A stretch of 64,000 nt of DNA from Dictyostelium discoideum (taxonomy: Eukaryota): assembly GCA_000004695.1 (NCBI GenBank), contig CM000151.3:7200001-7264000 (forward strand), read 5' to 3'. Below, one piece after another: positions 25,968 through 61,279 of the stretch. The notes under the pieces are model-generated. The model was not told the origin of the DNA. It ran no database searches and saw only the letters and a program-made list of their open reading frames with translations. Numbering within the stretch: the stretch's first letter is position 1; every line of letters begins with the position of its first letter. The position numbers and the translations under genes are program-made.

Positions 25968-26682
25968 TTCTTTTGCTTTTTTTTTTTTCTTTAACTTGTT
26001 TTTTAAAATTATTACTATTAATTATAAAATAAAGAATTAAAATGAAAAAAAAAAAATAAAGAAAATAAAGTGTTATTATTTAAAGTGTGTGTGGTTATTA
26101 ATGTAAAAATGTAATGATATAAAAAATAAAAAAATAAAAAATAAAAAAAAAAGTGAAAGAACGGTTTTTAAAAAAAAAAAAATAAAAAAAAATGAAAAAA
26201 AAACAATTATTAATATAGAAAGAAATTTCATTTTATTTTTCTTTTCCACAAAAGCGCCGACGAATAAAAAAAAAATTTTTAGATATTTATTTTAAATTTT
26301 AAAATTAGGAATTAATTAATTTTTTTACCATTAAATAAAACATTCACAAAAAAAAAAAAAAAAAAAATTTTATTTTCATTTTTTTTATTTTTTTTTTTTT
26401 TTATTGGTTAAATTTATTTATTTTTAATATGAATTTAGTATATAAAAATAGATAGAGCACTCAAGAATACACAAAATGATATAAAGTATAAAAAGGATGT
26501 AATCATTCCGTTTTTTTGATTTTTTTTTTTTTTTTTTTTTATCTAAAATTTTATTTTCAGAATTTATTTAATTTTAAATTCATTTTTTTATCTTAATAAA
26601 TACATTTTTTTTTTTTATTTTTATTTTTTTATTTTTTTATTTTTTTCTTTTTTCTTTTTTCAGGTTTTGTGACTTATTATTT

Positions 26683-29600
26683 TTATTTTGGCATTGTTGG
26701 TAAAGAGAGGGGTATGGGTGGTGTCGTTCTTCCTTGAATTGTAATTCCTGTAGATTTTGACAACGATGCTTGGTGGAATTTTGGTTTATTAAAAAGATTA
26801 CAAGTACCATTGGATAAAATTGGTTGAAAAGTAGTTGGAGAGTTATTAGTATTATTGGATGGAGGTGGTAAATCATTATTTGTTGTTACATTTCCAATGG
26901 TCGAAGATGATCGAGGTGGCGGAGCATGCTTTACAATTAAAGGAGGTGGTGGTAATTGAATTTCACTAGCAGTTTTTTTAAATGCACTATTTATATTACT
27001 AAATGGAGAAGAACGATTTGGTAAAGTACAAGTTTGATTTATTGAATTTTGATTATTGTTATTATTATTGTCATTATTATTATCATTATTATTATTATTA
27101 TTATTATTGTTATTATTATTTATTGATGATGGTTTTGAAGCAATTGGTTGTGATATTATTGATGCAGTTGTAATTGGTGATTTTGCTCGTGGTGCTGGAG
27201 TTGGTTTAGTAACTGGAGATTTTGCTCTTATCACTGTTGATGGTGGTGTTGTTTGAGGTGGTGGAGTTGGTGATACTGAATGTGGTGTTGAAGAGGATGG
27301 TGGTGGTGGTGGTAATCTATTTGTATCACCTTGTTGATATAAATAAGTTTTAGGTGGTAATGGTGGTGGAATTGAATTGTTATTATTATTGTTTGAAGAA
27401 AAATAACCATCATCATCATCATTATCAGGTGGTGGAGGTAAATTTAAACAAGATGATGGTAATGGTGGTGGAGTGAATTTTGAATTATTTGAAATTATAG
27501 GTGGAGGAATTGGTGATGTGCAAGTTGATTTATATTCAGTTTTTGTAGAAATTGTAGTTGTTGTAGTAGTTGTAGTTGTTGTGATAGTTGTAATTGATGG
27601 TGGTGGTGGTAATGGTAAACTATTGAAATCAATAGGTGGTGGTAGATTTGAAAATTCTATTGAAGGTGGTGGAGGTGGTGGAAATCTTGGTGAATTTGAT
27701 GATGAATTAATTGTTGTTGTTGTTGTGGCGGTTGTTGATGGAATTGGTATTGGTGGTGGGAATTGTAAAGGTGGTGGAGGTGGTAATAAATTTGTAAAAC
27801 TTCTAGAACCACCACCATTTTTAATTGGAACATAGTCACAACTTGATGAAAGAGGTGTATTAAAACCAGATGATGGAGCAGATAAAGGATGTGAAGAAGC
27901 AGAAGTACTTAAATATTCAGTATCAGCAGTTATTGTATTATATGGACTAGCATTTCTAGGTGGTGGAGGTGGTTTTGTCATAGAATTTGGTTTTAAAACT
28001 TGTGATGCTGGAGGTGTAGTCAATTGAGGAGAAGATGATGAATCATCACTACCATATGAAATTGATGATATTGTTTGTGGCATTCTTCTTGCATTATGTT
28101 TTGTATCTTGTTGTTGTAATTGTTGTTGTTGTTGCTGTTGTTGTTGCTGTTGTTGTTGTAATTGTTGTTGTAATTGTTGTTGAATTGATGGATCATTTTG
28201 GAAATTATAAAATGATGGTACAGAACTTGCTCTTGAAAAATTTGAAGAAGATGGTACAGTGCTTTGAAAAGTTGGAGATAATGAATCAATTACAGAATGA
28301 GTAAGAGTACTATTGGGTGAAGGGTTGGCAGAGTATGGACCACTAAGAGGTTTACCAGTTGTTGAATTATTTGGAGAAGTGAAAATATCTTTAACATTTA
28401 ATGGTGGTGGAGGTGGTTTTCTAGTTTCTCTTAAACTACCAGTTGGAGTAATTGAATTCAGTGATAATGAAGATGGTGAACCTGATGAAGTTGAGGACGA
28501 AGAAATTAAACCACATCTACCAATTGTACCATTACCACCACCACTATTTGAATGACTTTGTCTAGTATTAAAACTTGGAGATTCTAAACTTGGTGAATTA
28601 CTACCACCACTACTACCACCATTACCACAACCACTATTACTTAATAAACCAGTTAAATTTGCCGAAGATCTTGGAGATGGTGTCATTGAAATATCAATTG
28701 ATAAAGTTGGAGTACTTGATAAAGAAGATAAAGAACTTGTTGAATTTAAGAAAGTACCAGAATTCTTTTTTAAGAACCAACTATATTTAGCTTGTTTATT
28801 TTGATCAATTTTACCACCAGCCAATGATTGAATTGCAGCTAACCATTCTTTTTTCTCTGCTTCACTTGAAAAGTATAAACCAATAATCTTTTCTTTCTTT
28901 TCATTTAATACTAAAATTTCAAATCCTTCTTTATAACCAGGTAATGAATCAATTGAATCACGAATTAAAATATTTTCTAAATAAACTATTAATTTTACAG
29001 TTGAATTTGATTTTTTATTTTTAGCTAAAATTAATACATCTATATATTTTTTTATAAAAAAAAAAAAAAAAAAAAATTAATATTTTTTAAAAATTTAAAA
29101 AATAAATAAATTAATAAAATAAAATATTTTACCATTTAATAAAATACATCTTAATAATTCTTTATCTAATTTTTTTGAAACTAAACCTTCTTTTATAAAT
29201 TTTCTATTTTGATTTGATAATTTTAAATCTGAATCTAAATTTTGTAAAGAATATTCAATTTCTTTAATTTTTTTATCATTTTCTATTTTCTCGTCGGCAA
29301 GTCTTTTTTGATGATTAATTTCCTCTAAGATTGAATTAATTTTTAAGAAACAATAATTTATAAAACCATAGTCCATATGATCGATTGGAGTATTCTCTAA
29401 AAGTGATTTTAATAGTAATGGATATTTTGTAATTCTTTGAATTGGTTTAATAATTAACATTGGAAATGATAATCCTCTTGTTAAATGACTCTTTGCTGCA
29501 CCTTCAATACAATTTGAAAATACTTTTGATGAAATTTTTAATTTTTCAAATGATTCTATACATGTATTTTGATATGAACAAAATTCTTTATATAAATTTA

Positions 29601-42198: not shown

Positions 42199-44136
42199 TT
42201 AATTAAAAGTTGTTGAATCAGAAGAAGAATCAGAAGAAGGTGAAGCAGGTTTCATTGATTGTAAGGACATTGTCATCCAATCGAAATTCCAAGTAGTTGG
42301 TTGACCAGCATAAGTGTATTTTTGATTCCATTGTGAATTCCAAGTGAATGGAGTTTCATTATCATGAGATGGACCAGATTGAGCATTTACTAAAAGAGCA
42401 GCAACCATATCAGCTGAAACAACTTTTGAATCGATACCACCGAAAGCATCAGGATCAAGGTATTGATTATTTGGGTCGTCAGCAGTGACTAAATCGAAAC
42501 GACTACTAATTTGATTACCAGCATTACCTTGTGAGAATGGATCATTTTGCCAGTTATTATAACGAAGCATAGCTTGGAATTGAGTTAATGAATGAATGTT
42601 ATTAGCATCACGTTTGAAAATCATTGATCTTGGACTTGCTTGATAAGAGAACCAGTTACCAAATTGTGCATAAGTTTCATTGAAACCAGTTAAACCATAA
42701 ATATTCTCATAGAATGGAATATTAAATGATGGCCAATAACCAGTACGTAAAATTGCTGTTTGATCACCATATTCAACGTAATCTGGTACTTGTTCTAAAA
42801 TATAAAGTGTACCATCTAATGCACCATAACCTTTAATAAATTTATTATAATCAACAATAATCCACTAAATTAATTAATAATAAAAAATAGTGTGTGTGTG
42901 TGTGTGTGTGTTAATAATAAAATATTAATATTTATATATATCTCTATAAATATATTGATTTTTAAAAATAAAACATACTTGATTATTATAAGTACCAGAA
43001 TTATATAATGAAAAAGTTTGACACCAAGATTCACCACCAGTAGCTAAACGATTGGCAACGATAACTCTTATCCATGAAAGAACAGATTCTGATGTAATTA
43101 AATGATAAAGATTATTATTCATTAAACCATTTGTAGTTTCAATTACAACAATCTTTGTATCTAATAAATAGAAATCATCAATTGAACTAAGAGTACCTGG
43201 GTAACCTGAAAACATTGTGACTTTTGATGCTGGTGGTTGACCATTAAATAAATATTTAAGATTATAAACTTTAAACATTCTAACCATTTCATAATATGAA
43301 GACCTATAAAAAAAAAAATAAAAAAATTAAAAGTTAATAAATTATTATTATTATTATTATTATTTAAATAATTTAAAAAATATATATATTTAAATAATTT
43401 ACCAAGTAGTATGACCAGAGAAAAGATCACTTAAATCATCAGTCATTTTAATTAAAGCTGAACAATGACCGGTTCTTCTCATAAATTCTTTGAAAGCTTG
43501 TTTTGGTGAAGTGGCAGTGGCTGGGGAGGTAACTTGTTTACCGTTGGTAAGGTTGAGGGCTGGACCAAGGTCAATCATATCACCATCCATATTCATTAAG
43601 AAAAATTCTGTGATGCCTAATGATTGTGAAGCGTCAACACCATTATCAATGACGGATTGGTTGTAACCACGTTGCATATATGTGATTTGAGTTAAAACAG
43701 TTTCAACATTTTGCCAATATAAATCATTTGATGGTGCACTGTCAATCATTGTTTGTAAGTATTGTAAATTCTCTTGAATCCAATTCTCAACATCTGATCC
43801 AATTACATTGTGGTATTCGTTATTGTACATGTTCATCCAATTTTGGTAAATCATTTCTTGGGAAATATAACCTTCTAAATAACCTGCACCTGCTGCAATG
43901 ATATCGTTTGGATAAAGTCCCTCTGATGAGCTAATACTCATAAATGACCAACCTGTAGTCATCATTTCATTGGAGAATATTGCTTGTGCAACACCATTTG
44001 AAAATGTACCTGGTTTAACATAATAGTTATCTGGTTGTGAATAAAATACAGTATATCCATCGTCAATGCTACTTTGTGATAAAACACTACCAATAATTGC
44101 AATGGTTAATAATAAAAGTGACCTTATTACTCTCAT
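42199..44136 (-). CDS. Phospholipase B-like (LAMA/PLBD family) secreted protein; 3 exons approx 43403..44136, 42979..43303, 42199..42864
   Basis: Signal peptide MRVIRSLLLLTIAIIGSVLSQ, then ...GWSFMSISSSEGLYPNDIIAAGAGYLEGYISQEMIYQNWMNMYNN...LYWQNVETVLTQITYMQRGYN...CSALIK.... Donors are TG|GTAAAT and CAA|GTATGT. Intron 2 contains (CA)10. Boundaries anchored to the three ORF-track entries. Confidence 0.8.
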
Positions 44137-51358: not shown

Positions 51359-52516
51359 TTACATAACATTATTAATAGTATCATCAGTTGAAACTTTACT
51401 ATTATTATTTTCACTATTTATTGATATAGTATTACTTTCATTACTTTCATTTGATTTTACAGTTGGTAAAGATACCGGTAATGAATTTAAACTACTACCA
51501 CCAATAACAATATGATTTTTTTGTTTTTCAATTCTTTTAAATTTGAAATAATTTTTAAAAGAAAGTTCACCCATTACAAAAATTACCATTATCATTTGAA
51601 ATGAGTCAGCAATTCCCACAATGAAATTACTTATTATCATATAAACATATGGTTGAGGATTTTGTGGTAAAATAAAATTTATTACTATATCTTGTACTAC
51701 TACAACTATAATTACAATGATAATTGTTGATAGTAATATCTTTGATTTTAAAATCATCTTTTTATAGAAATCTTCATATTGTGCTTTTTTTGAAGATTTC
51801 TTCATTCTTCCAACTAATATCCAACCATTAATTGCAACAGCTAATGAATATACACTTATAAATACAACCATTCCTATTGCCTCTAAAATTGCAATAGAAT
51901 TATCCATTAAAAATATAATTTGAATAATAATTTGCCAACATAGATAAATACCAACTAAAATTGAAGAAATATAATAAATCTTTTTTATATTATTAGAACT
52001 CTTTGTTTTCATTTTTTTAGAAAGAAAGAATTGATATACAATTTGGGCCCATAATGATCCTAAAAAACTCCATTCTTAAAATTTTTAAAATTTTTAAAAT
52101 TTTAAAATTATTAATAATTAATTTATTTTATTTATTTTTTCAAATTAGATTGATACCTTACCACAAAATACAAAAAATACTCCATAAGAGAACCAAAAAT
52201 AGTGCCAAGTACCAACTTTCCAATCGTTAGGGAAAATTACAAATAATACTGAAAATATAACTCTTGTTAAACAAAAAAGAAATAAACAAAGGAATATTAT
52301 AAATTTTGTATTTACCATATTCCTTACAACAACAATTGACTTTCTTTCATGCCAAACTTGGAAACCTTTATATTAAATCATATATTAAAATTTATTATTT
52401 TATTAAATTATTATTTTTTAATTTAATTTATCTTTACCATTCAAAACCATGAAAATAAAATAAAAAACTATTTTAAAAATAAAAAGTGTATAGGCTATCT
52501 TTTCTTCATGATTCAT
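51359..52516 (-). CDS. Seven-transmembrane (GPCR-like) membrane protein, paralogue 2 of the tandem pair; 3 exons approx 52438..52516, 52162..52365, 51359..52074
   Basis: MNHEEKIAYTLFIFKIVFYFIFMVLN|GFQVWHERKS...NTKFIIFLCLFLFCLTRVIFSVLFVIFPNDWKVGTWHYFWFSYGVFFVFC|EWSFLGSLWAQIVYQFFLSKKMKTKSS...QIIFLMDNSIAILEAIGMVVFISVY...IVINFILPQNPQPYVYMIISNFIVGIADSFQMIMVIFVMG... It is co-linear with paralogue 1 at about 45-50% identity. It lacks paralogue 1's last intron and has a different exon-2/3 junction. Total CDS is 999 nt, in frame. Confidence 0.55.
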
Positions 52517-52769: not shown

Positions 52770-53360
52770 AAATAAACTAAATTTGTGACATACGTGGTGA
52801 CATTCATATATTGAATTATCTTCTGTGAGATACGATACATACTCAATTAAATGATAAGTGTTACTTAAAAGAGCTCGATAATCACATTTAAAAATAGTAT
52901 TTATATCAGTTTTTGAAATATTTGTATACCAGAGGATTATTATTTTTAATTTTTTATTTTTTTTTTTTTTTTTTTTTCTCTAAGTAAAAAACCCTTATTT
53001 TAAAACATATATTTATTTTACCGATGTTTTTTTTATCAATATAATTTTTCAATAATTCTTGAATTTTATCATTATATGATTATTTTTCAAAATCTATTAT
53101 ATTTCATTTTTATCAATATCAATTGGTATTATTTTTTTATTAAGTTATTAAATTTCAAAATCACTTTTAAGTGATTAAGTACCCTAGTAAAATTTGTCAT
53201 AAAATGATGAATCTTCCTTTTTTTTTTTTCCCGTGTAATATTCTAATTTTTTTTTATTTTTTAATACTAAAACTAGTAAAAGAATTATATATTATCACAA
53301 AGTTGGTTTTTTTTTTCTTTAATTTTTTATTTTATTTTATTTATTTTTTTTTTTTTTTTT

Positions 53361-54244
53361 GTGTACAGATCACCCAAAGATACAGTATTCTTTTGTTTGG
53401 ATTGTAAATTAAAACCATGTTGTACTCAATGTACATCAAATAAAGGTGAACATCATGGTCATAGAACTGATTCATTAGAATTAGTAAATACTCTTTCAGT
53501 ATTGGAACATACTCAAGATATAATGGATAGACTTATAACTTCTTCAATTAAAGATAAGAATGAATTACTTAAAATATTAGTTTATAATTATAATAATGAA
53601 TATCATAATAAAGAGATCTTTGAAAAATTTAATGAAATTTCAAAATTTAATGATCAACAAATTTTTAATAATGAAGATTGTTTTAATGTTCATGGAGATA
53701 CAATTAAAACTATTAAATGTAAGCTTTATACAGTTTTTTTTTTTTTTTTTTTTTAATAAATTATTTTAACATTTCATTCTAATTATTACTAAATATAGTT
53801 AACAATTTAAACTTTAATATTTATAAAGAGGGTGATATTCTTAATTTTAAGGAGAATGTGGGTATAGAATTCAAAGACAATTCTATAAAAAATCAATTAC
53901 CATCAAGTGTAATGCTCTTGGATGGATTCAATCAAAAATTAACACCAGGTATATTACCAGATCATATTAAATGGTTGCATTTAGGTGATATTAAACAAGA
54001 ATTAATTGTTGGCTCAATTCCTAATACTGTGACTCATGTCACTTTATTTGATGGATTTAATCTAAAATTAACACCAGGTATATTGCCAAATTGTCTTGAA
54101 TCCTTGTATTTAGGTAATATTGGACAAGAATTTATGATTGGTTCCATTCCTAATACTGTGAAGAAAGTAAAAATTTCTGAAAATTTTAAACACCAAATTG
54201 AACCTTTTGTTTCAAAAAATGAAATAATAATTAAATTAGGTTGA
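53361..54244 (+). CDS. B-box zinc-finger + FNIP-repeat protein; exons approx 53361..53718 and 53799..54244. The 5' end is incomplete: there is no ATG (the ORF-track start is GTG), an acceptor CAG lies at 53368, and an upstream start exon is expected
   Basis: B-box-like Cys/His cluster FFCLDCKLKPCCTQCTSNKGEHHGH. The donor is T|GTAAGC at 53719 and the acceptor ATATAG at 53798 (phase 1, T+TT=Phe). FNIP repeats follow: DGFNQKLTPGILPDHIKWLHLGD...GSIPNTVTHVTLFDGFNLKLTPGILPNCLESLYLGN...GSIPNTVKKVKIS. The B-box + FNIP pairing is a known Dictyostelium architecture. Confidence 0.55.
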
Positions 54245-54557
54245 AGTTAAACAATTCCAATAAAAAAAATAAAAAAAAAATAAAAAAAAAATAAAAAAAA
54301 ATTAATAATTCTCTTTTATACAAATAAATTTTAAAACTGATTTAAAAAACTTATTTAAAATGTGAAGATGTAAGATTTTTAAGGTTGGTATTATTGATAT
54401 TATAATATATTGTTGTAAATTGTTTATAAAATTTATTATTTATTTTAATTTATTATTTTATTTATTTTTAATTTTTATTTTATTTTATTTTTTTAATTAA
54501 AAAAAAAAACTATAAGAATAAAAATAAAATGCAAAGAACTTAATTTGAATTAAATTA

Positions 54558-55694
54558 TCAATTTAATAATTTTGTTTTTTCATTTGGTTCTTGTTGTTGA
54601 CGTTGAGAAATAAAATTATTATTATTATTATTATTACTATTACTATTGTTGTTGTTATTATTATTATTATTATCGAAAAGATCACTACGACCATCATCAA
54701 TATTATTAATTGAAATATCAACACCTTCATTGGCACTATATAACATTGGTTTAAATTCATGAGGATTTAAAGCTTTATGTTGTAATAGGATTTCACAAAT
54801 TTCATCATCAGAAGTTTGATTAAAAGTAAAAGTATGAGATTTTACAAATCTTACAAAAACTGAACGATCTTGATACTTTTCATTGATAACATGATCAATT
54901 AAATCTTGATATTTGAAAATATCGAAAATGGTAATATTTTTAAATTGTTTAACGGTTGTATAGGAGAGGTGAGACATCATATTCTTGAAATCTAAATCAG
55001 AGAGTAAATTAACGTAGGCAATAAAGTACATTAGAGGGAAAAAGACATAGGTAAGGAAGAATTGAACGATTAGACTAATTGAACTAACCATATTTGTTCC
55101 AAATAAAAGATGAACGTTTAAACCGTTGCATGGCATATCGCCATATTGGTGGTTACGCCAGTAAACCCATACAAACTTTAGTCCCATAAATACAAGAATA
55201 TTAACAAATAGGAAAATGGTTAAACGCACCTCATGTTTCTTTTCACCTTCAATGAAAATTTTAGAAGTGGCTAAAATATTTTGAATTCTCTTTCTCTTTA
55301 AATATAATAAATAATCCAAAGTTAAATATAATATCACTTCTAATAAAAAGCAAATAAATGAAATTAATAAAATTAATCCAGAATATTGATCACCTTGTAA
55401 ACCAAATAGACTAACTGGGAAATTTAATGAATATTTTGAATCGGTATGGAAATATTCATTTAAACATTCTGGAACTCCTTCTATGAAACAATTATCTAAA
55501 GACATTGAATCCGTTGTACCATTTTTACCATTTCCAGAACATTCTACAATTGTCATTGTTGTAAATTCTTGATAAAATCCAACTTCCATAAAAACCATAA
55601 AACCTAATGTAATAATTCCAATAACTATAATTCTTACAATTGTAGGTTGAACTGTTTTTAAATAATTATTAAAATCAAATTTGAATTGATCCAT
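54558..55694 (-). CDS. Four-TM membrane protein, member A of a tandem triplicated lineage-specific family; single exon
   Basis: MDQFKFDFNNYLKTVQP..TM1..Cys-containing ectodomain (ECSGNG...DNCFIEGVPECLNEYFHTDSKYSLNF)..TM2..KRKRIQNILATSKIFIEGEKKHE..TM3..TM4..LSDLDFKNMMSHLS...DEICEILLQHKALNPHEFKPMLY... It is co-linear with the two downstream copies. Confidence 0.6.
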   Translation of the reverse strand: MDQFKFDFNNYLKTVQPTIVRIIVIGIITLGFMVFMEVGFYQEFTTMTIVECSGNGKNGTTDSMSLDNCFIEGVPECLNEYFHTDSKYSLNFPVSLFGLQGDQYSGLILLISFICFLLEVILYLTLDYLLYLKRKRIQNILATSKIFIEGEKKHEVRLTIFLFVNILVFMGLKFVWVYWRNHQYGDMPCNGLNVHLLFGTNMVSSISLIVQFFLTYVFFPLMYFIAYVNLLSDLDFKNMMSHLSYTTVKQFKNITIFDIFKYQDLIDHVINEKYQDRSVFVRFVKSHTFTFNQTSDDEICEILLQHKALNPHEFKPMLYSANEGVDISINNIDDGRSDLFDNNNNNNNNNSNSNNNNNNNFISQRQQQEPNEKTKLLN

Positions 55695-56368
55695 TTTTTT
55701 TTTTTTTTTTTTTTTCTCTCCTCTCCTTTTTTATTTTATTTTTATATAAATACAATTATTTTTTTTTTATTTTTATTTTTATTTTATGTTTTCTTTTTTT
55801 TTTTTTTTTTTTTTTTGAATATGCTTTTTTTTTTTTTTTTTTTTTTTCTATTAATAAATTTTGGTTTAGTTTAGGGGAAAAAAAAAATAAATAATAATTA
55901 AATTAAATAAAATTTAATTAAAAAAAAAAAATATAATTAAATTTTTATTTTTTTTTATTTTTCCATAATTCTGTAACCTATAAATAAACTTTTTTAATCT
56001 CAATTACCACATGCAAGGTTATGATAAAAAAAATTTAATTCAAAAAAATTAAAATTTTTTTTTTTTTTAACACTGGTTCCAAAAATTGACACTTGATGAC
56101 GCCAACATTTTTTTTTTTCAAACACCAAACCACAAAACTAAAAAAAATATCTAACCCACTGGTTTTTTTTCAAACAACTTTTCCAATTATAACGGACAAA
56201 AATAATATCAATTTGAGCTTTGAAATGAAAAAAAATAAAAAAATAAAAAAAAAAATAAAATAAAAAAATAAAAAAATTTAAACATTGTTTTTTTTATTTG
56301 TTATTTATAGTTTATTTTATTTTTTTTTTTTTATATTAATATCTTACATATTTTTTTTTTTTTTTTTT

Positions 56369-57430
56369 TTAATTTATTAATTTATCTTTTTCATTATGAT
56401 CATCATCATTACTACCAATAAATGATTTTGAAAGTTTTGATTCATTATAAAGCATTGGTTGAAAATCTTGTGGATTTGAAATTTTATAAGATAATAGAAT
56501 TTCAACAATTTCAGAAATTGGTGTTTTGAAAAAGCTAAATGTATTCTTACGTAAAAATAAAATTAATTTTGAATCTTTTGGATGTCTTTGAGGTATAGCA
56601 GAATCAATGATTTTATTATATTTATCAAAATCCAATACAGTGATTTGTTTAATTTGTTTAATACTTTCATGAGAGAGATGGTCAGTCATTTTCTTGAAAT
56701 CCAAATCTGATAAATAATTAATCCAACTACCAAGGAAAACCAATGGGAAAATTATATATGGAATTGAACTTGTGATTAAGGTTCCAATCGATGCAGATAA
56801 GGTGCCCAAGAAATTCACATTGTAAACATTACCATCACATTCGATATTACTATATTGGTTATCCCTATAAATGATCCAAATCACTTTTAAACCAATATAA
56901 ATCAAACCTGAAACTGCAAAATAAATAGTTAACCTTTTTTCAAACTTTTTATTACCATTTAAAAATATTTTAGATTCTGATAAAATTTGTTGAATTCTCG
57001 TTCTCTTTACCCAATTAAAATAATGCATTCCTTGATAAATTAATTGAATTCCAAGGAATAATAAAACTGCAAAACCAATTAATAATGAACTATATTTATC
57101 AGTTGGCAAACCCAACATTGACACTGAAAAAGCTAAAGAATAATTTGAACCTGTATTAAATTGTTGATTAACGCATGTTGTAAATTTAAATCCTTCATAA
57201 AAACAATTTTCTAAAGAATTTGAACTTGTAATACTACTACTATTATTTTTAATTACAATTGATGGTAATGTACATCCAACAATTTGCATTTTGTCAAAAT
57301 TTGAAAAAAATGTATATTCACCAACCATTAATAATCCAAAACCAATTAAAATTGTTAATAAAACTCTAATTGGTTTTGGTTGTGTAACATTTAAATAATT
57401 ATTAAATTCGAATGTAAATTGATCATTCAT
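56369..57430 (-). CDS. Four-TM membrane protein, member B of the tandem triplicated family; single exon
   Basis: MNDQFTFEFNNYLNVTQP...CTLPS...ENCFYEGFKFTTC...NTGSNYSLAF...KRTRIQQILSESKIFLNGNKKFE...LSDLDFKKMTDHLS...SEIVEILLSYKISNPQDFQPMLY... Confidence 0.6.
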   Translation of the reverse strand: MNDQFTFEFNNYLNVTQPKPIRVLLTILIGFGLLMVGEYTFFSNFDKMQIVGCTLPSIVIKNNSSSITSSNSLENCFYEGFKFTTCVNQQFNTGSNYSLAFSVSMLGLPTDKYSSLLIGFAVLLFLGIQLIYQGMHYFNWVKRTRIQQILSESKIFLNGNKKFEKRLTIYFAVSGLIYIGLKVIWIIYRDNQYSNIECDGNVYNVNFLGTLSASIGTLITSSIPYIIFPLVFLGSWINYLSDLDFKKMTDHLSHESIKQIKQITVLDFDKYNKIIDSAIPQRHPKDSKLILFLRKNTFSFFKTPISEIVEILLSYKISNPQDFQPMLYNESKLSKSFIGSNDDDHNEKDKLIN

Positions 57431-57480
57431 TTCTTTATTATTTATTTATATATATTTAATTAATTAATTTATTTATTTAT

Positions 57481-57520
57481 TTATATATTAATTTATTTAT
57501 TAATTTATTTATTTATTTTT

Positions 57521-57580
<60 letters not shown>

Positions 57581-57595
57581 TTATTAATTTATTAA
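57481..57595. repeat. (TTTA)n microsatellite, ~20 units, between family members B and C
   Basis: atttatttatttatttattt... run immediately upstream of the start of the 56369..57430 gene. Confidence 0.8.
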
Positions 57596-57631
<36 letters not shown>

Positions 57632-57872
57632 GATATGATTGAAGAAAAAAATAATTAAAAATAAAAATAAAAAGAATTTTCTTTATTTTTATTTATAAAA
57701 TTGGTGCAATTGTTGTGGAGTGTAACCTTAGATAAAATAAAATCATTATTTTTAGAATTTTTATAATAAAATTTTTGGTCAAAGGCGTTTGGAATAAAAA
57801 AAAATAAAAAAAATGAAAAAAAAATAAAAAATAAAAAAAAAATAAAAAAATGTCTTTTCAGATGCCACCACC

Positions 57873-57903
<31 letters not shown>

Positions 57904-58319
57904 ATTTCTATTTTTTCAAGTGTATTTTTAATTCATCAGAAAATCTCCTCATCTGGATTATTTACAGTTTTTATTTGTCATTTTTAAAAGTTTGAGTAAC
58001 TATTTTTCAAAAAAATAGGGGACATCTATAAAAATTAACTTTTTAATCCAATCTAAAAATAACAAAAAGAAAAAAAAGACTTTAAATTAAAAGACTCAAA
58101 TCAATAATTCTCATTTAACTACTTTTTTTTTTTCGAATTTTTCGAATTTTTACCAGGATTTGGATTTTCGATACCAAAGATATCTTTATTTTTTAGGATG
58201 CCATCGCATTTAATTTAATAAGATTATCTTTATTATTTTTTTTTTAATTTAAATTTAAAATAAAAAAAAATAAAAAAAAAAAAAAATAAAAAAAAAAAAA
58301 AGAAAAAAAGAAGAAAATT

Positions 58320-58386
<67 letters not shown>

Positions 58387-58387
58387 T

Positions 58388-59413
58388 TTATAAATATTGA
58401 TTTTGAATTAAATTATCATTAATTCTATTTTCATTTAAAAAAGTAGATTTAATATTTTTTGTTTGTATTGATTTAAATTCATCAGGTGAAGATTCTTTAT
58501 GTAATAATAAAATTTCAACAATTTCAGATGTTGAAGTTTTCCAAAATTTGAATGTATTACATTTTAAAAATAAAATAAAATTTTTATCATTTGAATATCT
58601 TTTTTTTAAAGTTGAATTTAATAATTTATTATATTTATCCATATCAAATATATAAATTTCATTAATTTTTTCTAAACTAATTTTTGAAAGATTTTCAGCC
58701 AATTTTTTAAATTCTAATTCTGATAAATAATTTAACCAACCCATTAAAAAAACACCAGGAATAATTAAATAACCAATTGAACCCATTACTATACCTGAAA
58801 TATAAGAAAATAAACTTTTTTCAAATTCCAAGTAATATGTATCTCCTGAACATTCAATTTCACTATAAATATCGTATCTATTTAATAACCACATAATTTT
58901 AGAACAAATATAACCAATACCAGTAACTAATAGAAATATTGTAACTTTTTTTTCATTTCTTTTATTTCCATCAATTAAAATTAAAGAACCTGATAAAACA
59001 TCTTGAATTCTTTTTCTCTTTACACTTTGAAAATATTGTGCAGTTTGGAATGTACTTAAAAATGTTATAAATAAAATCACCAATATTGTACCAATCAAAC
59101 CATTATATTTATCAGATTTTCCACCAACATTAAATGCTAAAGAATAATTTGAACCTGTATTATAATAATTATTTATACATTTTGTTACTAATAAATCATT
59201 ATTAAAACAATTATCAATATTCATTTCATTTGAATCTTTTTGATTTGGAAGTGAACAGCCAATTGCAACAAATTTTTCAAAACCTTTAAAAAAACCGGCT
59301 TCAGTTAAAATCATTAAGATGACCCCAATCGCCATTTGAATATAGATTCTAAATGGTTTTGGTTGACATTTTTTTAAATAACTACTAAATTCAAATGAAA
59401 AATGATTATCCAT
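58388..59413 (-). CDS. Four-TM membrane protein, member C of the tandem triplicated family; single exon
   Basis: MDNHFSFEFSSYLKKCQP...CSLPNQ...DNCFNNDLLVTKC...NTGSNYSLAF...KRKRIQDVLSGSLILIDGNKRNE...LSELEFKKLAENLS...SEIVEILLLHKESSPDEFKSI... Confidence 0.6.
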   Translation of the reverse strand: MDNHFSFEFSSYLKKCQPKPFRIYIQMAIGVILMILTEAGFFKGFEKFVAIGCSLPNQKDSNEMNIDNCFNNDLLVTKCINNYYNTGSNYSLAFNVGGKSDKYNGLIGTILVILFITFLSTFQTAQYFQSVKRKRIQDVLSGSLILIDGNKRNEKKVTIFLLVTGIGYICSKIMWLLNRYDIYSEIECSGDTYYLEFEKSLFSYISGIVMGSIGYLIIPGVFLMGWLNYLSELEFKKLAENLSKISLEKINEIYIFDMDKYNKLLNSTLKKRYSNDKNFILFLKCNTFKFWKTSTSEIVEILLLHKESSPDEFKSIQTKNIKSTFLNENRINDNLIQNQYL

Positions 59414-59535
59414 TTTTTTTTTTAAAATAAATAAATAAATAAAAAAATAATAATAATAATATATAATAATTATAATAATAATAATAATAATAATAATATT
59501 AATAAAAAATAATAAAAAGTATTGATTTAAGTGAT

Positions 59536-59576
<41 letters not shown>

Positions 59577-60221
59577 CTCTTTTACAAAAAAAAACAAAAA
59601 AAAAAAAAAAAAAAAAAGAAAAAAAAATTAAAAATAAAAACAAAAATAAAAACCAAGGTTATAACATCATATATTATTGTAATGGAACTCGTTAAGGGTT
59701 GTTTTTTTTTTTTTTTAATATCTTTTCTTTTTGTAACTCGCCATAACATTTTATTTTTTTTTATTTTTATTTTTATTATTTTTTTAATTTTTCAATTTTT
59801 TTTTAACCTATTTATTTTGAGAATAAAAATCAGATATTTACAAAATTTTATTTTTAATCGGTTTTTTTTTTTTTTTTTTTGGCATCAAAAAAAAGAAAAA
59901 CACTGGCCGAGTTTTTTTTTTTTTTTTTTTCAGTAATCACCAAAAACCTATAATATTAATTTACCAAAAATGGCTGAGATTAGTAAAGAAAATGAAGATA
60001 ATTTTATTTTTAAAATGAAAGTATTATATAATCAAATGATTCACATACCATCAATGTTCAGTACATTAAAAACAGAGTTTCCTCTTTTTTTTGAAACTGA
60101 TACTACAAATATAATTCATTTACCAATGACATTACAGAGCAAAATTATTCAAAAGTGAATTTCTCTTCGAAAATTTTTTTTAAAAATTTAAAGATATAAA
60201 AACAAAATCCTAAATATATTA

Positions 60222-60281
<60 letters not shown>

Positions 60282-60338
60282 AAGATTTTAATTGATATAA
60301 ATAGACCAACAAGAGGATATTGTTCAAAATTTATAAAA

Positions 60339-61279
60339 ATGTTAACTCAAACATTAGAAAGATTAGATAAAGAAGTTAATGAATCAATATTAGAGAAATT
60401 TTTAGAAATAATATCACCAATAACGCCACATCAAAATGATGATGGTGGTGATAATAATCAATCAGAAGATAAAACTGAATATTGTTGGAAATCATATTAT
60501 ATACAAAATAAATGGATAACTTTAAAAAATGAAAATGCATACAATTTAGTTGGTATGACAACATGGGGTGCAGCATATCAACTCTCTGATTTCATTCTAT
60601 CAAATCAAAATTTATTTATTAATAAAAATATATTAGAATTGGGTAGTGGTACAGGTTTAGTTGGTATAATCTTAGATTTCATTAAACCATTAAAAAAAGT
60701 CATCTTAACTGATTATTCTCCAAAAGTTTTAAAAAATTTAAAATTTAATATGGAATTAAGTATGTGTTTTTTTTAAAGTTTATTTGATAATAATTAATAA
60801 TAATAATAGTAATAATTTTTTTTTAAAAAAAATGTTTAGATAATTTAGAAATTCAAGATTTTATTAATGATGATGATGATGATAATAATAATAATGTAAA
60901 TAAAGAAAATGATGATAAAATTAATCAGGTTAGAGTTTTAGATTGGGAGATCGAAGATTTAAATATTTTAAATAATTATAGTGGATTAAATGATTCAAAT
61001 ATTATATTAGGTGCTGATATAGTTTATGAACCATCACTTTGTAAATACTTGGTATCAATTTTATACTTTTTATTAGAAAGAAATGAAAACTCTGTAGCAT
61101 ACATTTCTTCAACAATTAGAAACCAATCAACATTTTCAATATTTCAAAAAGAATTAAATCTTAAAAATTTAACTGTAATTGATATAACAAAACAATTTGA
61201 GCAATCATCTCCAACTTCACCTTTTATTTATGATAGATCTCAAATTGTATTATATAAAATTTATTTAGAAAAGAAATAA
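60339..61279 (+). CDS. Class I SAM-dependent protein-lysine methyltransferase of the FAM86/EEF2KMT-METTL21 (MT16) family; 2 exons approx 60339..60759, 60840..61279. The ORF 59970..60158 could be an additional 5' exon
   Basis: ...WKSYYIQNKWITLKNENAYNLVGMTTWGAAYQLSDFILSNQNLFINKNILELGSGTGLVGIILDFIKPLKKVILTDYSPKVLKNLKFNMEL|NNLEIQDF...VRVLDWEIEDL...ILGADIVYEPSLCKYLVSILYFLL... has the E/DxGxGxG motif I, the DY/DxD post-I and the (D/A)DIVYE post-II of the family. The donor is A|GTATGT at 60760 and the acceptor GTTTAG at 60839. Anchored to ORF-track 60339..60776 and 61049..61279. Confidence 0.7.

What the first reader, a model, noticed from the sequence alone, without database searches (positions are those of the whole stretch)
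54558..59413. Tandem triplication of a lineage-specific 4-TM membrane-protein family
Three single-exon minus-strand genes (54558-55694, 56369-57430, 58388-59413) are co-linear paralogues at ~30-40% identity. They share an N-terminus M(D/N)xxF(K/T/S)F(D/E)F(N/S)xYL, a TM, a Cys-containing ectodomain (…(D/E)NCF…C…SNYSL(A/N)F), three more TMs with a conserved K(R/K)(K/T)RIQ cytosolic loop after TM2, and a conserved C-terminal cytoplasmic block LS(D/E)L(D/E)FK(K/N)(M/L)…HLS … SEIVEILL.(H/Y)K…P.(E/D)F(K/Q)(P/S)(M/I). I recognise no known domain. Each copy has its own AT-rich promoter with poly(T) and microsatellite tracts. Their divergence suggests an old, rapidly evolving cluster, typical of accessory, environment-facing gene families in Dictyostelium.
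Basis: seen in the sequence. Interest (0 to 1): 0.5.

Follow-up and report, generated by a model that had tools for sequence, protein, structure and literature searches.

The report
Three tandem orphan four-pass membrane genes
Three neighbouring Dictyostelium discoideum genes encode related four-pass membrane proteins from a family found only in social amoebae; the genes are intact and conserved, but they are uncharacterised and otherwise an ordinary tandem gene family.

Summary
Three intact, co-oriented minus-strand ORFs lie at the stated coordinates. They are identical to the annotated AX4 chromosome 2 hypothetical proteins DDB_G0276907 (A), DDB_G0276905 (B) and DDB_G0277023 (C). They share 36-43% identity (E 1e-60 to 1e-93).

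All three have four TM helices, cytosolic N and C termini, exactly 3+1 Cys in the two outer loops, a polybasic TM2-TM3 loop and a folded cytosolic C-terminal domain of about 90 aa.

"Triplication" understates the family. AX4 has at least 5 paralogues. D. firmibasis has four tandem copies in the same syntenic slot, and D. purpureum has three.

"Rapidly evolving, environment-facing" is not supported. dN/dS is 0.11-0.32, like neighbouring genes, and the cytosolic parts are the most conserved.

A new feature is a C-terminal acidic dileucine motif ([DE]xxxL[LI]) in 17 of 29 members (about 2% expected by chance).

My best guess, inferred and not shown, is an adaptor-sorted tetraspan membrane organiser of endocytic or vesicular membranes. 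Interest is modest.

The parts
54558..55694 (-). Gene A = DDB_G0276907 (378 aa), single exon, 4-TM protein. It is the most conserved copy (89% aa identity to D. firmibasis, dN/dS 0.11).
56369..57430 (-). Gene B = DDB_G0276905 (353 aa), single exon, 4-TM protein. dN/dS 0.32. Low expression with a transient peak at 4 h of starvation in published data.
58388..59413 (-). Gene C = DDB_G0277023 (341 aa), single exon, 4-TM protein. dN/dS 0.28.
57377..57430 (-). B residues 1-18: conserved cytosolic N-terminal helix, M-x-D/N-Q-F-x-F-D/E-F-x-x-Y-L...Q. The equivalents are 55644-55694 in A and 59360-59413 in C.
57095..57304 (-). B residues 43-112: exoplasmic loop 1, with three Cys present in all 29 members scored (C53, C76, C86), at least one NxS/T sequon, and a variable low-complexity insert. 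The equivalents are 55386-55571 in A and 59108-59287 in C.
56990..57007 (-). B residues 142-147: polybasic KRTRIQ immediately after TM2. A has KRKRIQ at 55281-55298 and C has KRKRIQ at 59003-59020. The TM2-TM3 loop is 28% K+R, which places it on the cytosolic side.
56801..56866 (-). B residues 189-210: exoplasmic loop 2, 22 aa in 27 of 29 members, with a single Cys (C198) in every one of the 29 members scored. The equivalents are 55092-55157 in A and 58814-58879 in C.
57317..57319 (-). Codon for Glu38 inside TM1 of B, invariant in the 15-member alignment A3. A has E37 at 55584-55586 and C has E38 at 59300-59302. Its proposed partner is Lys in TM3: B K182 at 56885-56887, A K173 at 55176-55178, C K172 at 58898-58900.
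56459..56719 (-). B residues 238-324: folded cytosolic C-terminal domain (mainly helical, with two short strands; pLDDT 84) with no PDB fold neighbour. The equivalents are 54750-55010 in A and 58472-58732 in C.
56375..56392 (-). B residues 347-352: EKDKLI, an acidic dileucine [DE]xxxL[LI] motif one residue from the C terminus. A has EKTKLL at 54564-54581. C has only NDNLI, which does not fit the canonical pattern.
55695..56368 (.). A-B spacer, 674 bp, 13.5% GC, with T runs up to 23 nt. Presumed promoter of A and terminator of B (inference).
57431..58387 (.). B-C spacer, 957 bp, 12.7% GC. An (ATTT)x42 array (57425-57593) abuts B's start codon, and there is a T42 run at 58324-58365. There is no room for the fourth copy seen in D. 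firmibasis.
59414..60338 (.). Spacer upstream of C, 925 bp, 14.3% GC, shared divergently with a Methyltransf_16 gene that starts at 60339.

Best explanation
**What it is (shown).** These are three members of a Dictyostelia-restricted family of tetraspan membrane proteins. The family arose by old tandem duplication and all copies are kept under purifying selection.

**Predicted architecture.**
- A short conserved cytosolic N-terminal helix.
- Four TM helices, with a conserved Glu in TM1 and a conserved Lys in TM3.
- A large exoplasmic loop 1 (3 Cys, N-glycosylation sequons) and a fixed 22-aa loop 2 (1 Cys). If all four Cys are oxidised within one molecule, this forces one disulfide between the two loops.
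- A polybasic juxtamembrane loop.
- A compact cytosolic C-terminal domain of unknown fold.
- A low-complexity tail ending in an acidic dileucine motif.

**How it most likely works (inferred).** The proteins are non-enzymatic membrane organisers or cargo adaptors, comparable to synaptophysin/MARVEL or tetraspanin-type proteins.
1. They are inserted in the ER and probably glycosylated and disulfide-bonded on the lumenal/extracellular side.
2. AP-type clathrin adaptors then sort them through the C-terminal [DE]xxxL[LI] signal between the plasma membrane and endosomal, lysosomal or contractile-vacuole membranes.
3. There, the conserved cytosolic surfaces (N-helix, KRKRIQ loop, C-domain) recruit or position partner proteins.
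4. Published transcript data suggest use mainly in early starvation and aggregation, not in growth.
For: **ORFs and paralogy:**. Identity with annotated AX4 genes.

**Topology:** four hydrophobic segments and four long helices in the AF2 model (pLDDT 74). By the positive-inside rule, the TM2-TM3 loop is 28% K+R against 3-10% in loops 1 and 2.

**Loop signature:** all 29 members have exactly 3 Cys plus at least one NxS/T sequon in loop 1, and exactly 1 Cys in loop 2.

**Conserved residues:** E38, K182, R145, the four Cys, F298 and F323 are invariant in the 15-member alignment A3 that spans both deep subfamilies. Each is the top residue in at least 90% of the 29 members scored.

**Dileucine motif:** [DE]xxxL[LI] lies within the last 14 residues in 17 of 29 members, against about 2% in shuffled tails. 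An LL or LI pair is present in 27 of 29, and it persists although the surrounding tail varies in length and is low-complexity. That this motif binds AP-1/2/3 is established knowledge, not tested here.

**Selection:** purifying, dN/dS 0.11-0.32, similar to neighbouring genes. Cytosolic regions are the most conserved.

**No catalytic signature:**

**Expression:** B reads 0.29 at 0 h, 6.9 at 4 h and about 0.5-1.4 later. A and B appear in lists of genes up-regulated in starving suspension cells (PMC6198379 supplement 5; PMC4403905 supplement 7).
Against: - There is no experimental localisation, partner or phenotype. No paper in the searchable library names any of the genes.
- Copy C, its orthologues and a few other members lack the canonical acidic residue at position -4.
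- Two D. purpureum members lack the LL/LI pair altogether.
- Disulfides, glycosylation and the E-K salt bridge are inferred from sequence only. Model coordinates could not be inspected.
- Expression levels are very low, and my reading of the column for A in the k-hop table rests on counting tabs in a text snippet.
Confidence: 0.4

Rival explanations
1. Oligomeric channel or pore subunit. The four-TM protomers would assemble into a ring, as in connexin, innexin, CALHM or LRRC8. The conserved N-terminal helix and the TM1 Glu / TM3 Lys would line or gate a pore. The disulfide-locked outer loops would form the mouth, and the cytosolic C-domain would mediate assembly.
For: - The topology is shared with large-pore channels: a short conserved N-terminal helix before TM1, 4 TM helices, conserved Cys in both outer loops and a helical cytosolic C-terminal domain.
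- Charged residues are conserved inside TM1 and TM3.
- The N-terminal helix is under strong constraint in A and C (dN/dS 0.03-0.04).
- Connexin chains appear among the non-significant Foldseek hits (E 4-9).
Against: - No significant sequence or fold match to any channel family.
- The Cys pattern of 3+1 differs from connexin (3+3), from innexin/pannexin (2+2) and from CALHM.
- The oligomeric state was not modelled.
- A single buried Glu/Lys pair is explained equally well as a structural salt bridge.
Confidence: 0.15
2. Cell-surface recognition or adhesion proteins whose ectodomain faces the environment (bacteria, kin, substratum) and diversifies quickly.
For: - Tandem, lineage-specific amplification, with copy number changing between species (3 to 4 copies).
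- A variable-length low-complexity insert in loop 1 (59-101 aa).
- Induction early in starvation.
Against: - dN/dS of loop 1 is 0.12-0.31, no higher than the rest of the protein or than neighbouring genes.
- The most conserved parts are cytosolic.
- The ectodomain is small (about 60-70 aa plus 22 aa) and has no recognisable adhesion fold.
- A C-terminal endocytic or lysosomal sorting motif argues against stable surface display.
- The genes are absent from the bacterial-response supplement of PMC7078664.
Confidence: 0.1
3. Dispensable or decaying duplicates: the copies are redundant relics on the way to pseudogenisation and have no distinct function.
For: - Very low transcript levels for B.
- C was not found in any expression supplement searched.
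- One tandem copy (B') is absent in D. discoideum relative to D. firmibasis and D. dimigraforme.
- A truncated 238-aa relative exists in one D. discoideum strain.
Against: - All three frames are intact in AX4, and each has a full-length predicted orthologue in several other Dictyostelium genomes.
- dN/dS is well below 1 for each copy.
- The A, B and C orthologue groups are each maintained across species.
Confidence: 0.03

Closest known systems
MARVEL-domain tetraspan vesicle proteins (synaptophysin, physins/gyrins, MAL, CMTM)
   Different: No Pfam MARVEL hit at E up to 10 in any of 15 members. hhalign probability is 0.1%. Foldseek is not significant. The Cys pattern of 3+1 implies an inter-loop disulfide, whereas synaptophysin (from my own knowledge, not tested here) has one disulfide within each loop. 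The family has a folded 90-aa cytosolic domain where synaptophysin has a disordered Gly/Tyr/Pro-rich repeat tail.
Claudin/PMP22/TARP and tetraspanin-type four-pass organisers
   Different: No sequence-family hit. The large loop is loop 1, as in claudins, whereas in tetraspanins it is loop 2. The W-GLW-C-C claudin signature and the CCG tetraspanin signature are absent from the alignment. This family also has the long conserved cytosolic C-domain.
Large-pore 4-TM channels (connexin, innexin/pannexin, CALHM, LRRC8)
   Same: An N-terminal helix before TM1, 4 TM helices, conserved extracellular Cys in both loops, and a helical cytosolic C-terminal domain.
   Different: No significant sequence or structural match (connexin Foldseek E 4-9, TM-score 0.16-0.26). 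The Cys count differs. The oligomeric state is unknown.
Cargo carrying [DE]xxxL[LI] acidic dileucine signals (for example LIMP-II, tyrosinase, CD3-gamma)
   Same: The motif lies close to the C terminus of a cytosolic tail, preceded by acidic residues, in 17 of 29 members.
   Different: This is only a short linear motif. Binding to Dictyostelium AP complexes was not tested. Copy C and some relatives have non-canonical spacing.

Membership tests
MARVEL domain (PF01284; synaptophysin/MAL/occludin) | Significant match to the MARVEL profile | tested here: not met
   hmmscan of 15 family members against Pfam-A at E up to 10 lists no MARVEL hit.
MARVEL domain (PF01284; synaptophysin/MAL/occludin) | Four-TM M-shaped topology with both termini cytosolic | tested here: met
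   Hydropathy, AF2 helices and positive-inside counts.
MARVEL domain (PF01284; synaptophysin/MAL/occludin) | Structural superposition clearly above generic helical bundles | tested here: inconclusive
Claudin/PMP22 (PF00822) and tetraspanin (PF00335) | Profile match and signature motifs (claudin W-GLW-C-C in loop 1; tetraspanin CCG in loop 2) | tested here: not met
   No Pfam hit. The conserved Cys lie in the contexts GC(S/T), (D/E)NCF, C(I/L/V)N and (E/P)C(D/N/S)G, and there is no CCG or GLW motif.
Connexin/innexin/CALHM/LRRC8 large-pore channels | Profile or fold match, family-specific Cys pattern, oligomeric pore | tested here: not met
   No Pfam or PDB sequence hit. Foldseek gives E 4-9 and TM-score of 0.26 or less for connexins. 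The Cys pattern is 3+1. The oligomeric pore is not testable with these tools.
AP-adaptor cargo with an acidic dileucine signal | [DE]xxxL[LI] in a cytosolic, accessible tail | tested here: met
   Present in A (EKTKLL) and B (EKDKLI) and in 17 of 29 members within the last 14 residues, against 1.9% in shuffled tails. The tail is low-confidence and probably disordered in the AF2 model (residues 329-353 have pLDDT below 50).
AP-adaptor cargo with an acidic dileucine signal | Binding to AP-1/2/3 and motif-dependent sorting | not testable with these tools
   Needs tagged proteins, LL-to-AA mutants and AP-null Dictyostelium strains.
Dictyostelia-restricted orphan family (this family) | Homologues confined to Dictyostelia | tested here: met
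   An exhaustive HMM search of 1.84 billion representatives gave 14 hits. Three word-index searches gave further hits. Every hit that carries a name is from Dictyostelium, Tieghemostelium or Synstelium. No profile built from the wider family was run exhaustively, and AFDB was not searchable.

The most novel reading that the evidence does not exclude
The family would be a new type of eukaryotic tetraspan protein with a cytosolic domain of a fold not yet seen. One version is a dictyostelid-specific pore-forming subunit analogous to large-pore channels. Another is a V-ATPase- or coat-associated vesicle protein, filling a synaptophysin-like role in contractile-vacuole or endolysosomal membranes during early starvation.
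Probability: 0.12. Interest if true: 0.6.

Novelty: new variant of a known kind. Interest (0 to 1): 0.3.

Why it matters
The practical gain is a clean definition of an undescribed family. It now has a membership list (at least 5 genes in AX4, about 30 proteins across Dictyostelia). It also has a signature: 3+1 Cys, TM1 Glu and TM3 Lys, K(R/K)xRIQ, a C-terminal domain and an acidic dileucine motif.

Several hypotheses are directly testable in a tractable organism: where the proteins go, whether sorting depends on the LL motif, and what binds the C-domain.

If the C-terminal domain is a new fold, or the proteins turn out to be channel subunits, that would add a lineage-specific element to Dictyostelium membrane traffic or osmoregulation.

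As it stands this is one of many lineage-specific tandem families in a genome known to be rich in them. It does not bear on a long-standing question.

Tried and rejected
- **Pfam** on the three proteins and on 15 diverse members at E up to 10: only scattered one-off weak hits, and no family hit by more than one member.
- **Profile searches against all PDB sequences**, with the full-length and the C-domain profiles: nothing below E 0.2.
- **Foldseek against PDB:** nothing below E 1.
- **AFDB50 Foldseek:** not available on the server.
- **hhalign against the neighbouring 217-aa four-TM ORF** (51359-52012): unrelated, probability 0.2%.
- **hhalign against synaptophysin:** probability 0.1%.
- **Fourth copy or pseudogene in the window:** none by tblastn.
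- **Literature:** no paper mentions DDB_G0276905, DDB_G0276907, DDB_G0277023, DDB_G0278669 or DDB_G0292658, nor the UniProt accessions of four of them (Q86JA7, Q86JA8, Q550U0, Q54CW4).
- **Expression supplements:** those of PMC7078664, PMC11367525 and PMC4931340 do not list the genes.
- **Dileucine literature:** a search on dileucine sorting in Dictyostelium gave nothing directly usable.
- **Positive selection on the ectodomain:** rejected on pairwise dN/dS. Site models were not run.

Full report
**1. Observation**

The window has about 20% GC throughout. Its genes match D. discoideum AX4 chromosome 2 exactly (record of 8,484,197 bp).

One search lists three intact minus-strand ORFs at exactly the reported coordinates:
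- A: 54558-55694, 378 aa
- B: 56369-57430, 353 aa
- C: 58388-59413, 341 aa

Their translations are identical to the annotated AX4 proteins DDB_G0276907 (Q86JA7), DDB_G0276905 (Q86JA8) and DDB_G0277023 (Q550U0). All three are named only "hypothetical" or "transmembrane protein".

Pairwise blastp gives A-B 39%, A-C 36% and B-C 43% over more than 315 co-linear residues, with E 1e-60 to 1e-93. tblastn with all three proteins finds no further copy or remnant in the 64 kb.

The spacers (674, 957 and 925 bp) have 13-14% GC against 21-26% in the coding sequences. They are full of homopolymer runs and carry an (ATTT)x42 array that abuts B's ATG. This is real but is the normal state of Dictyostelium intergenic DNA.

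**2. Anatomy**

Kyte-Doolittle analysis gives four hydrophobic segments in each protein. An AlphaFold2 model of B built on a 17-sequence alignment (mean pLDDT 74, pTM 0.63) has four long helices at the same places.

The TM2-TM3 loop is 28% Lys+Arg, while loops 1 and 2 are 3-10%. By the positive-inside rule, the N terminus, the TM2-TM3 loop and the C terminus are therefore cytosolic.

Across the 29 family members scored:
- Every member has exactly three Cys and at least one NxS/T sequon in loop 1.
- Every member has exactly one Cys in loop 2.
- Loop 2 is 22 residues long in 27 of 29.

If all four Cys are oxidised within one chain, one disulfide must tie loop 1 to loop 2. This is inference, because model coordinates could not be read.

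Residues invariant in the 15-member alignment A3, which spans both deep subfamilies, are a Glu in TM1 (B E38), a Lys in TM3 (B K182), Arg145 in the K(R/K)xRIQ stretch after TM2, the four Cys, L99, F101, and F298 and F323 in the C-terminal domain. Each of these is also the top residue in at least 90% of the 29 members scored.

The C-terminal region (B residues 238-324) folds on its own with pLDDT 84 into a small, mainly helical domain with two short strands.

The tail after it varies in length and is low-complexity, but it ends in a conserved acidic dileucine motif. [DE]xxxL[LI] lies within the last 14 residues in 17 of 29 members, including A (EKTKLL) and B (EKDKLI). The rate in shuffled tails is 1.9%. 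An LL or LI pair is present in 27 of 29. Copy C has NDNLI, which does not fit the canonical spacing.

**3. Relatives and history**

Four searches returned only dictyostelid proteins among hits that carry a name:
- the three-gene profile against 5.8 billion clustered proteins
- an exhaustive HMMER scan of 1.84 billion representatives, which gave 14 hits
- two searches with broader family alignments

The species represented are D. discoideum, D. cf. discoideum, D. citrinum, D. firmibasis, D. dimigraforme, D. purpureum, Tieghemostelium lacteum and Synstelium polycarpum.

AX4 has at least five members: A, B, C, DDB_G0292658 (344 aa, on another chromosome) and the more distant DDB_G0278669 (409 aa). 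Other D. discoideum isolates also have a 368-aa member and a truncated 238-aa one.

In D. firmibasis the same syntenic slot holds four tandem copies, C-B'-B-A. The slot is flanked by cystatin and Methyltransf_16 genes on one side and by a 214-aa TM gene and PEX11 on the other. D. dimigraforme also has B'.

In D. purpureum three copies (DICPUDRAFT_75366, _27579 and _86244) are tandem, with a phospholipase B gene next to them and an FNIP gene about 8 kb further on. Both gene types are also present in the window.

A neighbour-joining tree places the D. purpureum gene _86244 with A at 100% bootstrap. B/B', C and DDB_G0292658 form separate well-supported orthologue groups, but their mutual order is unresolved (bootstrap 14-44%). 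The T. lacteum genes and the DDB_G0278669 clade branch outside.

The cluster therefore predates the split between D. discoideum and D. purpureum, and copy number has changed since then.

**4. Selection**

Nei-Gojobori dN/dS between D. discoideum and D. firmibasis is 0.11 (A), 0.32 (B) and 0.28 (C). Two neighbouring genes give 0.20 and 0.26.

Loop 1 gives 0.12-0.31, no higher than the TM or cytosolic parts.

Against a divergent D. discoideum isolate (GCA_054859385.1, dS 0.04-0.11), the values are 0.12, 0.27 and 0.18, with 0.19 for PEX11.

Across the family the lowest column entropy is in the N-terminal helix, the TM2-TM3 loop and the C-domain.

These are rough estimates in a very AT-biased genome, but they give no sign of fast or diversifying evolution of the outer face. 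None of the copies looks like a pseudogene.

**5. Comparison with known families**

- **Pfam:** nothing for the three proteins, and no family shared by even two of 15 diverse members at E up to 10.
- **PDB sequences:** family profiles give nothing below E 0.2.
- **Foldseek against PDB, full-length model:** no hit below E 1.
- 0.1% probability.
- **AFDB:** could not be searched.

The family therefore shares the general build of tetraspan vesicle and plasma-membrane organisers. It cannot be filed under MARVEL, claudin/PMP22, tetraspanin or any large-pore channel family.

**6. Expression and literature**

No paper in the searchable library mentions any of the gene or protein identifiers.

In supplement 5 of PMC6198379, B has the following values taken from Parikh et al. 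2010: 0.29 (0 h), 6.9 (4 h), 0.75 (8 h), 0.53, 0.54, 1.38 and 0.80 (24 h). Cell-type TPM values are 1.95 in spores and 0.16 in vegetative cells.

In supplement 7 of PMC4403905, A is listed four times and B five times among differentially expressed genes. The occurrences I could place lie in the suspension_UP sheet (A and B) and in the filter_DOWN sheet (A). For A in filter_DOWN the column appears to be the 8-h gradual one, judged by counting columns in a text snippet, so that assignment is tentative.

Together these data suggest weak expression that is induced by early starvation. C was not found in any table searched.

**7. Interpretation**

*Shown:* a real, old, conserved, Dictyostelia-restricted tandem family of N-in/C-in tetraspan proteins with a distinctive signature.

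*Inferred:* loops 1 and 2 are lumenal or extracellular, glycosylated and disulfide-linked. The TM1 Glu and TM3 Lys sit at similar depth and may pair.

By established knowledge of the motif, the C-terminal acidic dileucine signal is read by AP adaptors. This would send the proteins to endosomal, lysosomal or contractile-vacuole membranes, or cycle them from the surface.

There is no catalytic signature and the cytosolic face is the most constrained. I therefore favour a non-enzymatic organiser or adaptor role (confidence about 0.4).

A pore-forming oligomer is the main rival (about 0.15).

**8. Verdict**

This is an undescribed orphan family with a possibly new cytosolic domain and a clear predicted sorting signal. 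It is still one of many lineage-specific tandem families in this genome, and no functional evidence is available. Interest is 0.3.

Noticed in passing
window 52795-54614 (ORFs 53361-53756 and 53858-54244, + strand): A B-box zinc-finger ORF and an FNIP-repeat ORF (Pfam E 2e-5 and 1e-22) lie between gene A and the 217-aa TM gene. In the blastn comparison (HSPs of at least 300 bp) this roughly 1.8-kb stretch has no aligned counterpart in the divergent D. discoideum isolate (L003). No gene is called between A and the next TM gene in D. firmibasis (L001), although no DNA alignment was made there. It looks like an insertion specific to the AX4 lineage, or a deletion in the others.
   Followed up: partly
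L001 10001-11038 (D. firmibasis RB653_002895); also D. dimigraforme ACTA71_005138: A fourth tandem copy (B', 66-67% identical to B) sits between B and C in these species. The 957-bp B-C spacer in the window has no room for it and shows no remnant by tblastn.
   Followed up: partly
window 54615-54673: An (ATT)n array encodes the poly-Asn tract in A's tail. The tract is 22 residues longer in another D. discoideum isolate (378 vs 400 aa), while the dileucine end after it is unchanged.
   Followed up: partly
window 51359-52012 (- strand): A 217-aa ORF with several hydrophobic segments is conserved next to the cluster in D. firmibasis (214 aa, dN/dS 0.20). It has no Pfam family and is unrelated to the A/B/C family by hhalign.
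   Followed up: partly
L002 10001-11170 (D. purpureum DICPUDRAFT_86244): The D. purpureum orthologue of A has one short intron inside the TM2-TM3 cytosolic loop (after ...MANSM). The D. discoideum genes are all single-exon.
   Followed up: partly
P0023 (Synstelium polycarpum, 1574 aa) and P0026 (D. discoideum ACTFIR_002518, 238 aa): In P0023 the family domain (residues 5-320, lacking the N-helix) is followed by about 1250 aa of Cys-rich repeats and a terminal TM, which may be a gene-model fusion. P0026 goes from loop 1 straight to the C-domain and lacks TM2-TM4, which may be a truncated paralogue or a mis-modelled gene.
   Followed up: no
window 43399-44136 (- strand) and L002 12504-14431: A phospholipase B gene lies about 10 kb from the cluster in D. 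discoideum and directly next to it in D. purpureum. This suggests old synteny despite different flanks on the other side (an ABC transporter in D. purpureum).
   Followed up: partly
window 26001-28000: GC skew jumps to +0.53 in this 2-kb bin, against less than 0.22 in absolute value everywhere else in the window. I did not look at what is there.
   Followed up: no
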